NCBI RefSeq assembly: GCF_022846255.1
Contig: NZ_AP025682.1
Direction: 5' to 3' (one strand)
Source of the DNA: Escherichia coli
Lineage (GTDB): Bacteria; Pseudomonadota; Gammaproteobacteria; Enterobacterales; Enterobacteriaceae
DNA: 64,000 nt
Position 1 is the stretch's first letter; each line of letters opens with the position of its first letter. Positions 1 through 3,000 of this stretch are shown piece after piece. The position numbers were made by a program.

Positions 1-3000
1 TCTTTAATGCGTCCGGTGACATACAGATAACCGTCCAGCAGATAACCAAGGTCTCCGGTGTCTAACCAGCCCGTCGCGGCAATCTCGTCTTGCGAAACCT
101 GGTCGCCAAAGTACCCGCTCATCAGGCTGGGGCCGGAGATGCAAATATGGCCTACCACACGTTCCGCGACAGGTATATCTGCTTCATTGCGGATTTCAAT
201 GCCATGTTCCGGCAACGCTTTACCGCAGTTGACGAAAGTCGATACGGCGCGTGTTTCAGCACCCGGCGCGACGGCTTTACCCTGGTATTCGAGGATGTCG
301 CGATCCACTTCGTTAACCACAACCCCGCAGGCTTCATCAGAGAAGCTGACAGCCAGCGCATTTTCTGCCAGTCCGTAGCACGGCATGAAAGTTTTATCGT
401 CAAAGTTAACCTGACGGAAACATTCAGCGAATTGATGGAGTTGTTCTGCGGATATGGGTTCTGCGCCAATACCAGCGACGCGCCAGCAGGAAAGATCCAG
501 TTCAGCGAGATCTTTTTCATTCACGCGGCGCTGGCACAATTCATAGCCAAACGGCGGTGCAACGGAAACGGTGCCACGATTTTTACTGATCAATTTAAGC
601 CATTGCAGAGGACGCATGGCAAAATCCTGAGTGCGCAAATAATCTACTGAAAGCTGCGTGGCGACGGGGGTCAGGAGAAAGCCGACCAGTCCCATATCAT
701 GGTAGAAAGGCAGCCAGGAGACGCAGCGGTCGCCAGGGCGTAATTTAATCCCATCGTGGCTTATAGCACGTAGATTAGCCATCACTTCGTGATGGGTGAT
801 AATGACGCCACGGGGAAAACGGGTGCTGCCGGAGGTGTACTGGAGGTAGGCGATATCGTTTGGAACTGGACGCTGGAGCACAACATCGGCTTCCGGTAAT
901 GCCTTAAACCAGGCGTGGCTTAAAACATGTAATTCGGGGTTGTTGTTATGCGTCGCGGCATTGACCAGTGGCAACCACTCATCACCAGTGATAATGGCTG
1001 CGGGCTGGCAACTTGCCAGTAAACCCTGCAGTTTGGCGCTCCAGGAATCCCGCTGACCTACGCCCATTGGAATCGCCAACGGGACGGCGACTAAGCCGGC
1101 ATACTGGCAGGCAAAAAAAGCCTCTACAAACCCGCTACTCGTTTCGGCAATCAGCGCCACGCGATCGCCTTTTTTCAGGTTCAGCGATAACAACCTTTTC
1201 GCACCAGCTTCGGCACGCGCTTTTAACGTCTGATATTCCAGTTGATCTTCAAGTTGGCAACGTCTGTCATAAAAATTCATTCCGGCGCTACTCAGAGCGG
1301 CGTAGTCCAAAGCATCAACCAGCGTTGGAAAATCGGCATAGCGCATAGGTAGGGAATGCGTAAAGATTTTATTAGACATATACACCACGAAAAAATTGGA
1401 TATCAAAAATAAAATGACAATAATGCGGTGGATTATATAGGCATAAAAGATAAATGAGATAGTATTTTCATCGGTGTGAAAATGAACATTGATTTAAATA
1501 ATAAGTTTGGCTTTTTTGTTTTTATTGTGAATGATATTTAATTTGTGAATATATTAAGAAGGAGCCTTGTCCGGTCGCCTTAAATCGACAAGAGGCATTG
1601 TGGCGCTTCTGTGTAGTCTTTGACCTTATCGTAATCATTAATAAATACTATTTATTCTTTGTTTGTATTCATTGGGTTGATTATTAAGATGCCGTTCGTT
1701 GCTGTTGCAACCTGTTTTTCACCGTTAATTATTTGTTATCCACAGAGATATGGAATGCGATCTGCTGATGATTAAAATTGAAAAAGTAATTAATAAAAAA
1801 GACCTTAAGGCATTTATCGCTTTTCCGTCATCACTTTATCCCGATGATCCAAACTGGATACCCCCTTTATTCATTGAACGTAGCGAGCATTTGTCTGCGA
1901 AGAATCCGGGGACGGACCATATCATCTGGCAGGCGTGGGTGGCAAAAAAAGCGGGGCAGATAGTTGGGCGTATTACCGCGCAAATAGATACCTTGCACCG
2001 TGAGCGTTACGGTGAAGATACCGGTCATTTCGGAATGATTGATGCCATTGATGATCCGCAGGTTTTTGCCGCGTTGTTTGGCGCAGCGGAGGCGTGGTTG
2101 AAGTCACAAGGTGCAAGTAAGATCAGCGGGCCTTTCAGCCTGAATATCAATCAGGAAAGCGGATTACTGATTGAAGGTTTTGACACACCTCCCTGTGCGA
2201 TGATGCCACACGGCAAACCGTGGTATGCCGCGCATATTGAACAACTGGGTTATCACAAAGGCATTGATTTACTGGCGTGGTGGATGCAGCGAACCGATCT
2301 CACTTTCTCTCCGGCGCTAAAAAAACTGATGGATCAGGTGCGCAAAAAAGTGACCATTCGCTGCATCAATCGCCAGCGGTTTGCCGAAGAGATGCAGATC
2401 CTGCGTGAGATTTTCAATTCTGGCTGGCAGCACAACTGGGGATTTGTGCCGTTTACCGAACATGAATTCGCGACCATGGGCGATCAACTTAAATATCTGG
2501 TGCCGGACGATATGATCTACATCGCTGAGATTGATTCTGCACCCTGCGCGTTTATTGTTGGCTTGCCGAACATCAACGAGGCGATTACCGATCTGAACGG
2601 ATCGCTCTTTCCCTTCGGCTGGGCAAAATTGCTGTGGCGTTTGAAAGTCAGCGGTGTGCGAACTGCGCGAGTGCCGCTGATGGGCGTGCGGGACGAGTAT
2701 CAGTTCAGCCGCATCGGCCCGGTGATTGCGCTGTTATTGATTGAAGCCTTACGCGATCCGTTTGCCCGCCGGAAGATCGATGCGCTGGAAATGTCATGGA
2801 TCCTCGAAACCAATACAGGCATGAATAACATGCTGGAACGCATTGGGGCGGAGCCGTACAAGCGTTACCGATTGTATGAAAAGCAGATTTGATGGCAGTC
2901 ACCCCTGCTTCATCTCCAGCGGCACCGCCGAGCGAATCAAATGGTGGCCTTCCAGCTCGATATCGTGGAGATTCTTTTTCACGGTCCGCACATGATCGCG

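What the first reader, a model, noticed from the sequence alone, without database searches (positions are those of the whole stretch)
1..2892. Acyl-AMP ligase-family gene and intact yghO-like gene flanking glcC
The truncated minus-strand gene at the window start has a clear AMP-binding signature, and the adjacent plus-strand ORF is intact. These point to a lipid or secondary-metabolite-type cluster extending leftward beyond the window, which I believe is disrupted in K-12.
Basis: partly seen in the sequence, partly recalled or inferred. Interest (0 to 1): 0.3.

Follow-up and report, generated by a model that had tools for sequence, protein, structure and literature searches.

The report
Edge of E. 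coli sphingolipid cluster
These two genes are the right-hand end of a published E. coli gene cluster for making ceramide-type (sphingolipid) membrane lipids; most E. coli strains carry it and the laboratory strain K-12 lost it through an IS5 deletion, so the finding is real but not new.

Summary
Window 1-1379 (minus strand) encodes the first 459 of 574 residues of a fatty acyl-AMP ligase. This protein is EcFAAL (PDB 3PBK), called AasR in the sphingolipid literature. Window 1750-2892 is an intact yghO.

In the closest complete genome (99.9% identical) the genes to the left are an NAD-dependent reductase, a dedicated acyl carrier protein (AcpR) and serine palmitoyltransferase. Beyond those lie LptG/LptF paralogues, a YtfJ-like gene, a 278-aa unknown, the flippase yghQ and yghR/S/T.

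K-12 lacks about 8.4 kb, from the 3' end of yghQ to window position ~1788, and has an IS5 copy in its place. The 13.8-kb stretch from yghT to glcC that holds the unit is at least 80% covered in 4042 of 5426 complete E. coli genomes, and its genes are under purifying selection.

Padilla-Gomez et al. 2022 (PMC9386255) studied this locus in BL21(DE3). They showed that AasR loads AcpR and that Spt then forms 3-oxo-sphinganine. They named yghO as the homologue (44% identity) of the Caulobacter ceramide-synthase gene. Here YghO models as a tandem GNAT, and its distant relatives sit in sphingolipid loci.

The lipid that wild E. coli actually makes from this cluster has not been identified. Novelty: already known. 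Interest is low to moderate.

The parts
1..1379 (-). aasR / EcFAAL: the 5' 80% (codons 1-459 of 574) of the fatty acyl-AMP ligase that loads fatty acids onto the dedicated carrier protein AcpR. The 3' end lies beyond the window start.
   Evidence: It is near-identical to PDB 3PBK 'Fatty Acyl-Adenylate Ligase' (1279 bits over the full length) and 448/459 identical to BL21(DE3) ECD_02851, which acylates AcpR but not CoA (PMC9386255). The FAAL pocket residues W224, M231, F279, the T252-R258 helix, T83 and P107 described in PMC8460268 are all present (the T83 and P107 positions were read off the sequence by hand).
1380..1749 (.). A 370-bp AT-rich divergent intergenic region between aasR and yghO. 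It presumably carries both promoters.
   Evidence: GC is 0.30 here against about 0.50 in the flanks. The sigma-70 consensus scan found 2 sites where 3.0 were expected, so it is uninformative. There is no Rfam match. Regulation is inferred, not shown.
1750..2892 (+). yghO (aca / bCerS homologue): an intact tandem-GNAT N-acyltransferase and the predicted ceramide synthase. The conserved start is probably the ATG at 1768, giving 374 aa.
   Evidence: It is 376/380 identical to BL21 ECD_02850, which is reported as 44% identical to Caulobacter CC_1154 (E 1e-107, PMC9386255 supplement). The AF2 model has pLDDT 95, and the best PDB folds are tandem GNATs. Homologues in other genera are 374 aa long.
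1789..1790 (.). Right-hand junction of the K-12 IS5-associated deletion. Everything to the left of about 1789 is absent from MG1655, so K-12 yghO has lost its promoter and its first codons.
   Evidence: K-12 matches 1790-2890 only; the IS5 terminal repeat abuts TTAATAAAAA.

Best explanation
Window 1-2892 is the right-hand end of the E. coli sphingolipid (dihydroceramide) synthesis and export locus. The proposed pathway has five steps.

(1) AasR, the ligase at 1-1379, adenylates a free C12-C16 fatty acid. It transfers the acyl group to the phosphopantetheine arm of the dedicated carrier protein AcpR, not to CoA. This step is shown for near-identical E. coli proteins.

(2) Serine palmitoyltransferase condenses acyl-AcpR with L-serine to give 3-oxo-sphinganine. 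This is shown for the BL21 enzyme.

(3) YghO, a tandem GNAT, adds the second acyl chain to the amine. This is inferred from 44% identity to the Caulobacter gene required for ceramide synthesis, from fold and from gene context.

(4) The NAD-dependent SDR reduces the 3-keto group to give dihydroceramide. This is inferred, and the order of steps 3 and 4 is disputed in the literature.

(5) The MOP flippase YghQ and the LptF/LptG paralogues, probably working with LptB, move the lipid to the outer membrane. This is inferred from the Caulobacter work.

K-12 lost the core of this pathway through an IS5-associated 8.4-kb deletion.
For: Gene content to the left in the closest genome and in BL21(DE3). 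Family assignments with curated cut-offs passed: FAAL NF006624 867.9 bits against 600; Spt NF047599 599.5 against 500; LptF TIGR04407 317.7 against 230; LptG TIGR04408 298.6 against 240; ACP PF00550; Epimerase PF01370.

The ligase is EcFAAL, PDB 3PBK. It was crystallised with lauroyl- and myristoyl-adenylate (PMC11837247) and loads EcACP (PMC8460268).

PMC9386255 reports that AasR_Ec acylates AcpR_Ec, that co-expressing AasR_Ec, AcpR_Ec and SPT_Ec gives 3-oxo-sphinganine, and that yghO/ECD_02850 is listed as aca. The supplement gives 44% identity to CC_1154 and 42% for AasR against CC_1165.

For YghO here: the AF2 model has pLDDT 95 and a tandem-GNAT fold. Three distant homologues (34-50% identity) lie beside LptF/G paralogues, and two of the three also lie near an alpha-oxoamine synthase. 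One homologue is named 'Hypothetical protein associated with Serine palmitoyltransferase'.

The same 13 genes travel together in Serratia liquefaciens, in a different order and with different flanks, and all of the genes within reach show the same in Pantoea cypripedii. dN/dS between two E. coli lineages is 0.04-0.21 for the nine cluster genes that could be scored. The 13.8-kb yghT-glcC stretch is at least 80% covered in 4042 of 5426 complete genomes. LptF2/G2 are needed for sphingolipid transport in Caulobacter, and that paper draws the E. coli UTI89 locus.
Against: The window stops inside the ligase, so the cluster to the left is inferred from near-identical genomes and is not seen in this strain.

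No paper in the searched library reports a sphingolipid from unmodified E. coli. BL21(DE3) carrying empty vectors showed a normal lipid profile on TLC, and its extract formed no 3-oxo-sphinganine. The chromosomal locus may therefore be silent under laboratory conditions.

YghO's enzymatic activity has not been assayed. It matches no Pfam or NCBIfam model and no PDB sequence.

E. coli lacks the Caulobacter head-group genes (DAGK_cat, CDP-OH_P_transf and NTP_transf_3 types), so the final product is unknown.
Confidence: 0.85

Rival explanations
1. The ligase primes a polyketide or non-ribosomal lipopeptide (a secondary-metabolite cluster), as FAALs do in mycobacteria and cyanobacteria.
For: The ligase scores 342 bits against an NRPS/PKS subfamily model and 281 bits against FadD32. 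The PDB matches after 3PBK are FAAL domains of PKSs.
Against: Both scores are far below the family cut-offs (4090 and 975). No ketosynthase, acyltransferase or condensation-domain gene lies in the 14 kb to the left in the closest genome, in BL21, or in the Serratia and Pantoea versions. The only acceptor enzyme present is an alpha-oxoamine synthase.
Confidence: 0.02
2. The FAAL-ACP-oxoamine synthase-SDR module makes a non-sphingolipid amino-lipid or an alpha-hydroxyketone signal (CqsA/LqsA type, or capnine-like), not a ceramide.
For: The synthase also matches BioF, Kbl and the CqsA-type model NF005526 (224 bits). The native E. coli product is unidentified.
Against: Only the Spt model is passed (599.5 against 500); the CqsA-type score is below its cut-off of 428. 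SPT_Ec incorporates L-serine into a compound that co-migrates with 3-oxo-sphinganine (PMC9386255). The co-conserved N-acyltransferase and LptF2/G2 fit a two-chain outer-membrane lipid.
Confidence: 0.06
3. The locus is a silent evolutionary relic in E. coli that yields no product in nature.
For: No sphingolipid was seen in BL21 with empty vectors. The promoter region is AT-rich. K-12 and some other strains have lost the locus and remain viable.
Against: dN/dS is 0.04-0.21 at dS around 0.1-0.2 for the nine genes scored. The locus is retained in about 74% of complete genomes. The whole unit is conserved in Serratia and most of it in Pantoea. The encoded enzymes are active when expressed (PMC9386255, PMC8460268).
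Confidence: 0.08
4. YghO is an unrelated acetyltransferase (for example a protein or small-molecule N-acetyltransferase) that merely sits next to the cluster.
For: RefSeq calls it 'N-acetyltransferase'. K-12 keeps most of the gene. It was included among GNAT candidates in a lysine-acetyltransferase screen (PMC6199490). The nearest solved folds acetylate sugars or thiols.
Against: It stays adjacent and divergent to aasR in E. coli, Serratia and Pantoea despite rearranged flanks. Homologues at 34-50% identity lie in sphingolipid-type loci. It is 44% identical to CC_1154, a gene required for ceramide formation. The K-12 copy is an IS5-fused remnant.
Confidence: 0.05

Closest known systems
E. coli BL21(DE3) ECD_02850-ECD_02854 (yghO/aca, aasR, epi, acpR, spt), Padilla-Gomez et al. 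2022, PMC9386255
   Same: It is the same locus. AasR is 448/459 identical, YghO 376/380, Spt 382/390 and AcpR 81/82, with the same gene order and the same glcC flank.
   Different: The only differences are allelic (about 96.4% nucleotide identity). That paper presents the locus as a feature of E. coli B and ETEC B7A. The survey here finds it in about three quarters of complete E. coli genomes.
EcFAAL, PDB 3PBK (Zhang et al. 2011, as cited in PMC8460268 and PMC11837247)
   Same: It is the same protein, with only a handful of substitutions and one single-residue indel over 574 aa.
   Different: The FAAL structural papers read here do not mention sphingolipids (0 occurrences). The biological role comes from the separate sphingolipid literature.
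Caulobacter crescentus sphingolipid locus CC_1152-CC_1168 (spt, acpR, aasR, cerR/epi, bcerS/aca, lptF2, lptG2, flippase, cpgA-D)
   Same: It has the same five ceramide genes, LptF/LptG paralogues and a flippase. AasR is 42% and YghO 44% identical to their Caulobacter counterparts.
   Different: E. coli has no cpgB (DAGK_cat), cpgC (CDP-OH_P_transf), cpgD (NTP_transf_3) or lptC2 counterpart. Instead it carries three P-loop kinase-like genes (yghR/S/T), a YtfJ-like gene and a 278-aa protein with no family. The head group is therefore probably different. The E. coli reductase has its Rossmann motif at residues 9-15 and no signal peptide, whereas Caulobacter CerR is reported to be periplasmic.
Mycobacterial FAAL-PKS systems (FadD32-Pks13, FadD28)
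   Same: They use the same FAAL chemistry: acyl-adenylate formation, rejection of CoA and transfer to a carrier-protein phosphopantetheine.
   Different: The acceptor here is a stand-alone ACP that feeds a PLP-dependent serine condensation, not a polyketide synthase. Scores are below those family cut-offs.

Membership tests
Fatty acyl-AMP ligase (FAAL, ANL superfamily) | ANL adenylation domain with its core motifs | tested here: met
   PF00501 E 2.5e-57. Motifs TSGST, YGLAE and GRIK lie in the window fragment.
Fatty acyl-AMP ligase (FAAL, ANL superfamily) | Score above the curated FAAL family cut-off | tested here: met
   NF006624 scores 867.9 bits against a cut-off of 600. FadD-type CoA-ligase models score far below their cut-offs.
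Fatty acyl-AMP ligase (FAAL, ANL superfamily) | FAAL-specific structural elements that block the CoA pocket (bulky W/M/F residues, the FAAL-specific helix, and the alternative pocket residues) | tested here: met
   The protein is near-identical to 3PBK. W224, M231, F279 and T252-R258 are present at the corresponding positions. T83 and P107 were read off by hand at an offset of -3.
Fatty acyl-AMP ligase (FAAL, ANL superfamily) | Forms acyl-AMP and acylates holo-ACP but not CoA | not testable with these tools
   This is reported for near-identical E. coli proteins in PMC9386255 and PMC8460268.
Rhodobacterial five-gene dihydroceramide set (spt, acpR, aasR, epi/cerR, aca/bcerS) | All five genes present and clustered | tested here: met
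   All five are present in the 99.9%-identical genome L001 and in BL21. Within the window only aasR (partial) and yghO can be seen.
Rhodobacterial five-gene dihydroceramide set (spt, acpR, aasR, epi/cerR, aca/bcerS) | The oxoamine synthase is a serine palmitoyltransferase | tested here: met
   The NF047599 equivalog scores 599.5 against a cut-off of 500. Activity of the BL21 enzyme is reported in PMC9386255.
Rhodobacterial five-gene dihydroceramide set (spt, acpR, aasR, epi/cerR, aca/bcerS) | The organism produces ceramide or another sphingolipid | not testable with these tools
   No report for unmodified E. coli was found in the library searched. BL21 with empty vectors showed none on TLC.
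Bacterial ceramide synthase (bCerS / Aca, Caulobacter CC_1154 type) | Full-length sequence homology to CC_1154 | not tested
PMC9386255 Supplementary Table 2 gives 44% identity, 98% coverage and E 1e-107 for ECD_02850, which is 376/380 identical to the window protein.
Bacterial ceramide synthase (bCerS / Aca, Caulobacter CC_1154 type) | GNAT-type acyltransferase fold | tested here: met
   The AF2 model has pLDDT 95. Foldseek hits to tandem GNATs 2WPW, 5KF1, 7Q3A and MshD have E values from 5e-16 to 5e-12.
Bacterial ceramide synthase (bCerS / Aca, Caulobacter CC_1154 type) | Genomic association with spt and sphingolipid genes across taxa | tested here: met
   Searches cover distant homologues and searches cover Serratia and Pantoea.
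Bacterial ceramide synthase (bCerS / Aca, Caulobacter CC_1154 type) | N-acylates the long-chain base | not testable with these tools
   No assay of YghO was found. PMC9386255 only suggests this role.
PKS/NRPS secondary-metabolite cluster | Ketosynthase, acyltransferase or condensation-domain genes next to the FAAL and ACP | tested here: not met
   None appears among the 13 genes of the unit or in its flanks.

The most novel reading that the evidence does not exclude
Most natural E. coli, and several other Enterobacterales, conditionally make an as-yet unidentified outer-membrane sphingolipid that decades of K-12 lipid biochemistry could not detect. Its head group would be built not by Caulobacter-type Cpg enzymes but by the co-conserved, uncharacterised YghR/S/T P-loop kinase-like proteins and the 278-aa protein. 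Export would go through YghQ and an LptF2/G2-LptB transporter.
Probability: 0.4. Interest if true: 0.6.

Novelty: already known. Interest (0 to 1): 0.25.

Why it matters
E. coli is the textbook organism for bacterial membrane lipids, and the textbook lists no sphingolipid. That picture comes from K-12, which carries an IS5 deletion of this very locus. The genes are intact, under purifying selection and present in about three quarters of complete E. coli genomes, including pathogens such as E2348/69, 042 and O104:H4. Their first enzymes are active. If the pathway is switched on in the gut or the environment, it would add a host-active lipid class (ceramides) and a second Lpt-type export route to E. 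coli envelope biology. As a genome-scan result, however, this is a correct re-identification of a published locus.

Tried and rejected
Foldseek against afdb50 was tried in order to retrieve the Caulobacter bCerS model directly, but that library was not available.

A PDB sequence search with YghO found nothing below E 0.08. The same search with the 278-aa protein and with YghS found nothing meaningful.

Pfam and NCBIfam give no family for YghO or for the 278-aa protein.

Rfam found no RNA family in window 1-4000. The promoter scan of the intergenic region found 2 sites against 3.0 expected, so it is not informative.

My first dN/dS run for aasR was wrong because a one-codon indel misaligned the genes. 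It was redone on a codon alignment.

The published identity table and the context look-ups already answered the homology question.

Literature searches for native E. coli sphingolipid production found nothing beyond the papers cited.

Full report
**What is in the sequence.** A reading frame on the minus strand starts at the ATG at 1379 and runs without a stop off the window start, giving 459 codons. A 370-bp stretch of only 30% GC follows. Then comes an intact 380-codon ORF at 1750-2892 on the plus strand, and then glcC at 2899-3663 on the minus strand. The window is E. coli chromosome. Region 1-2892 matches 4566 of 5426 complete E. coli genomes, and 4086 of them cover at least 80% of it. It is annotated there as 'fatty acyl-AMP ligase' and 'yghO'.

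**The ligase.** The window fragment is 459/459 identical to the N-terminal part of the 574-aa protein of strain GW-AmxH19. That protein hits Pfam AMP-binding over residues 45-424 (E 2.5e-57). It passes the curated NCBIfam model for fatty acyl-AMP ligases (867.9 bits against a cut-off of 600), whereas CoA-ligase models fall far short of theirs. It is essentially the protein crystallised as PDB 3PBK, 'Fatty Acyl-Adenylate Ligase' (1279 bits, full length). Papers read here say this EcFAAL was solved with lauroyl- and myristoyl-adenylate bound (PMC11837247) and that it transfers the acyl group to its partner EcACP (PMC8460268). The residues that paper uses to explain CoA rejection are present in the window protein.

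**What lies to the left.** The window ends inside the gene, so I used the closest genome, which is 99.9% identical over 1-2892. Its gene order, reading leftward from the ligase, is:
- an NAD-dependent epimerase/dehydratase-family SDR;
- an 82-aa acyl carrier protein;
- serine palmitoyltransferase;
- LptG and LptF paralogues;
- a YtfJ-family protein;
- a 278-aa protein with no family;
- a full-length MOP flippase (yghQ);
- yghR, yghS and yghT, then pitB.

BL21(DE3) has the same arrangement. Family scans support these names. Spt passes the beta-proteobacterial Spt equivalog (599.5 against 500). Both Lpt paralogues pass the TIGR equivalog cut-offs. ACP matches PF00550 and the SDR matches PF01370. 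No ketosynthase, acyltransferase or NRPS gene is present.

**K-12.** MG1655 matches the window only from about 1790. A k-mer comparison and a direct look at the junctions show that K-12 lacks roughly positions 7403-15788 of locus L001, about 8.4 kb. The missing stretch runs from the last 285 nt of yghQ to window position ~1788. An IS5 copy whose terminal repeats abut both break points sits in its place. The 4-bp sequences flanking IS5 differ (TTAG on one side, TTAA on the other). This suggests an IS5-mediated adjacent deletion rather than a simple insertion, but that is my inference. K-12 'YghO' therefore begins with IS5-derived codons (MISYQGLVRTFL...) and has lost its native promoter.

**It is already published.** Padilla-Gomez et al. 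2022 (PMC9386255) studied this locus in BL21(DE3) under these names: aasR (ECD_02851), epi (ECD_02852), acpR (ECD_02853), spt (ECD_02854) and aca (yghO, ECD_02850). They report four things:
- AcpR_Ec carries phosphopantetheine.
- AasR_Ec acylates its own AcpR.
- Co-expressing the three E. coli proteins gives 3-oxo-sphinganine.
- SPT_Ec prefers acyl-AcpR over acyl-CoA.

Their supplementary table gives 42% identity between AasR_Ec and Caulobacter CC_1165, and 44% identity (98% coverage, E 1e-107) between YghO and CC_1154, the acyltransferase required for ceramide formation. The window proteins are 97.6% (AasR) and 98.9% (YghO) identical to the BL21 ones. A 2026 preprint shows that the LptF/LptG paralogues of the Caulobacter sphingolipid locus bind each other and LptB, and that they become essential when anionic sphingolipid is made. 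It draws the E. coli UTI89 locus alongside (10.64898/2026.04.12.717747).

**Independent checks on YghO.** YghO matches no Pfam or NCBIfam model and no PDB sequence. An exhaustive profile-free search found 6538 cluster representatives at E of 0.001 or better, so the family is large. An AlphaFold2 model built on a 56-sequence alignment has a mean pLDDT of 95. Its best structural matches are tandem-GNAT N-acyltransferases: 2WPW, 5KF1, 7Q3A and MshD, with E values from 5e-16 to 5e-12.

Three distant homologues (34-50% identity) from unrelated bacteria all lie beside LptF/LptG paralogues. Two of them also lie near an alpha-oxoamine synthase. The genes around them are of the Caulobacter head-group type (DAGK_cat, CDP-OH_P_transf, NTP_transf_3). 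One homologue carries the source name 'Hypothetical protein associated with Serine palmitoyltransferase'. These results fit a ceramide-synthase role. The enzyme activity itself remains inferred.

**Extent and conservation of the unit.** In Serratia liquefaciens the same 13 genes occur together with the blocks in a different order and with different flanking genes. In Pantoea cypripedii the same is true of the genes within the 10-kb reach of the look-up. The order there is yghO, then aasR-epi-acpR-spt, then yghT, then yghS-yghR-yghQ-278aa-ytfJ-lptF2-lptG2. So yghR/S/T, yghQ, the 278-aa gene and the YtfJ-like gene belong to the unit and are not merely neighbours.

Between two E. coli lineages, dN/dS is 0.10 for aasR, 0.04 for yghO, 0.06 for spt, 0.09 for epi, 0.04 and 0.09 for lptF2 and lptG2, 0.06 for yghQ and 0.21 for the ytfJ-like gene. 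These values indicate purifying selection. The 13.8-kb yghT-glcC stretch is at least 80% covered in 4042 of 5426 complete genomes. GC content is about 50%, as in the rest of the chromosome. The locus is therefore a widespread, maintained part of the species, and not a peculiarity of E. coli B.

**What remains open.** BL21(DE3) carrying empty vectors showed an unchanged lipid pattern, and its extract made no 3-oxo-sphinganine. I found no paper in the library reporting a sphingolipid from unmodified E. coli. The AT-rich divergent promoter region at 1380-1749 may be silenced in the laboratory; this is an inference and nothing here tests it. The E. coli unit lacks the Caulobacter head-group genes and instead has three P-loop kinase-like proteins with only faint Thymidylate_kin similarity. 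The final lipid is unknown.

**Rivals.** A PKS/NRPS role for the ligase is excluded by gene content. A non-sphingolipid oxoamine product is unlikely, given the Spt model score and the published serine-dependent product. A decaying relic is contradicted by the selection and retention figures, although silence under laboratory conditions is quite possible. An unrelated acetyltransferase role for YghO is contradicted by its conserved position next to aasR across genera.

**Verdict.** Novelty is 'already known'. Interest is low to moderate, because the native product in E. coli has still not been identified.

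Noticed in passing
L001 9111-11257 (left of the window; absent from K-12): RefSeq names the two cluster permeases 'lptF' and 'lptG' because they pass the TIGR04407/04408 equivalog cut-offs (317.7 against 230; 298.6 against 240). K-12 lacks both genes yet exports LPS. They are therefore accessory paralogues (LptF2/G2), and the gene names are an annotation over-call.
   Followed up: partly
window 1750-1770: yghO is annotated from the ATG at 1750 (380 aa). Homologues in Serratia, Pantoea, Erwinia, Citrobacter and others are 374 aa and align from the second ATG at 1768 (MIKIEKV...), which is probably the true start.
   Followed up: partly
L003 10755-12443 compared with L001 13655-15379: RefSeq starts BL21 aasR at an internal Met (1689 nt) but starts the GW-AmxH19 gene 36 nt further upstream (1725 nt). 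The 3PBK construct begins at the upstream start. The annotation of the same gene is inconsistent between the two records.
   Followed up: no
L008 11354-11716; L009 11242-11604: In Serratia liquefaciens and Pantoea cypripedii a 120-aa DAGK_prokar (dgkA-like lipid kinase) gene sits directly downstream of yghO. E. coli has glcC at that position instead. This is a possible ceramide kinase candidate in those genera.
   Followed up: no
L001 12744-13658: The E. coli reductase (Epi/CerR homologue) starts MNQTVAVTGATGFIGKY, with its Rossmann motif at residues 9-15 and no room for a signal peptide. Caulobacter CerR is reported to be periplasmic (PMC11087976). This bears on the disputed order of acylation and reduction.
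   Followed up: partly
L001 3919-6289 and 7684-8520: yghT, yghS and yghR (P-loop proteins with only a faint thymidylate-kinase match, which RefSeq variously names 'dTMP kinase', 'ATP-binding protein' or 'hypothetical protein') and a 278-aa protein with no family or PDB relative are co-conserved with the ceramide genes across genera. Their roles are unknown. K-12 keeps yghR/S/T as orphans.
   Followed up: partly
literature (PMC8460268, PMC11837247 compared with PMC9386255): The FAAL structural papers on EcFAAL/EcACP contain no mention of sphingolipids. The sphingolipid papers call the same proteins AasR/AcpR. The two literatures on one gene appear to be unconnected.
   Followed up: partly
window 30361-44425: This is a group 2-type capsule (kps) locus. 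It has ABC-2 permease and ATPase genes at 30361-31904. Its region 2 consists of only a 1117-aa protein with no Pfam family (32037-35390) and a hexapeptide transferase (35427-36056). Genes sized like KpsS, C, U, D, E and F follow on the minus strand. The window stops being colinear with GW-AmxH19 at about 29.7 kb, just before this locus.
   Followed up: partly
window 45713-53352: A DUF4942 protein (45713-46555) and a 973-aa AIDA/Ag43-type autotransporter (50431-53352; ESPR signal, AIDA repeats, autochaperone and beta-domain) look like a CP4-44-like island remnant.
   Followed up: no
proteins P0121 (784 aa) and P0190 (940 aa): Some YghO-family members are fusion proteins. One has two matched stretches (a possible duplication), and another has about 570 extra residues C-terminal to the YghO-like part. 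Their partner domains were not examined.
   Followed up: no
hit H70 (strain LZHX12) and about 605 genomes with no match: Some E. coli genomes lack the whole yghT-glcC stretch. In one of them only a 191-base stub at the yghT end matches, and the features listed there are yghT and gspL, which suggests a much larger deletion. Which lineages these are was not determined.
   Followed up: no
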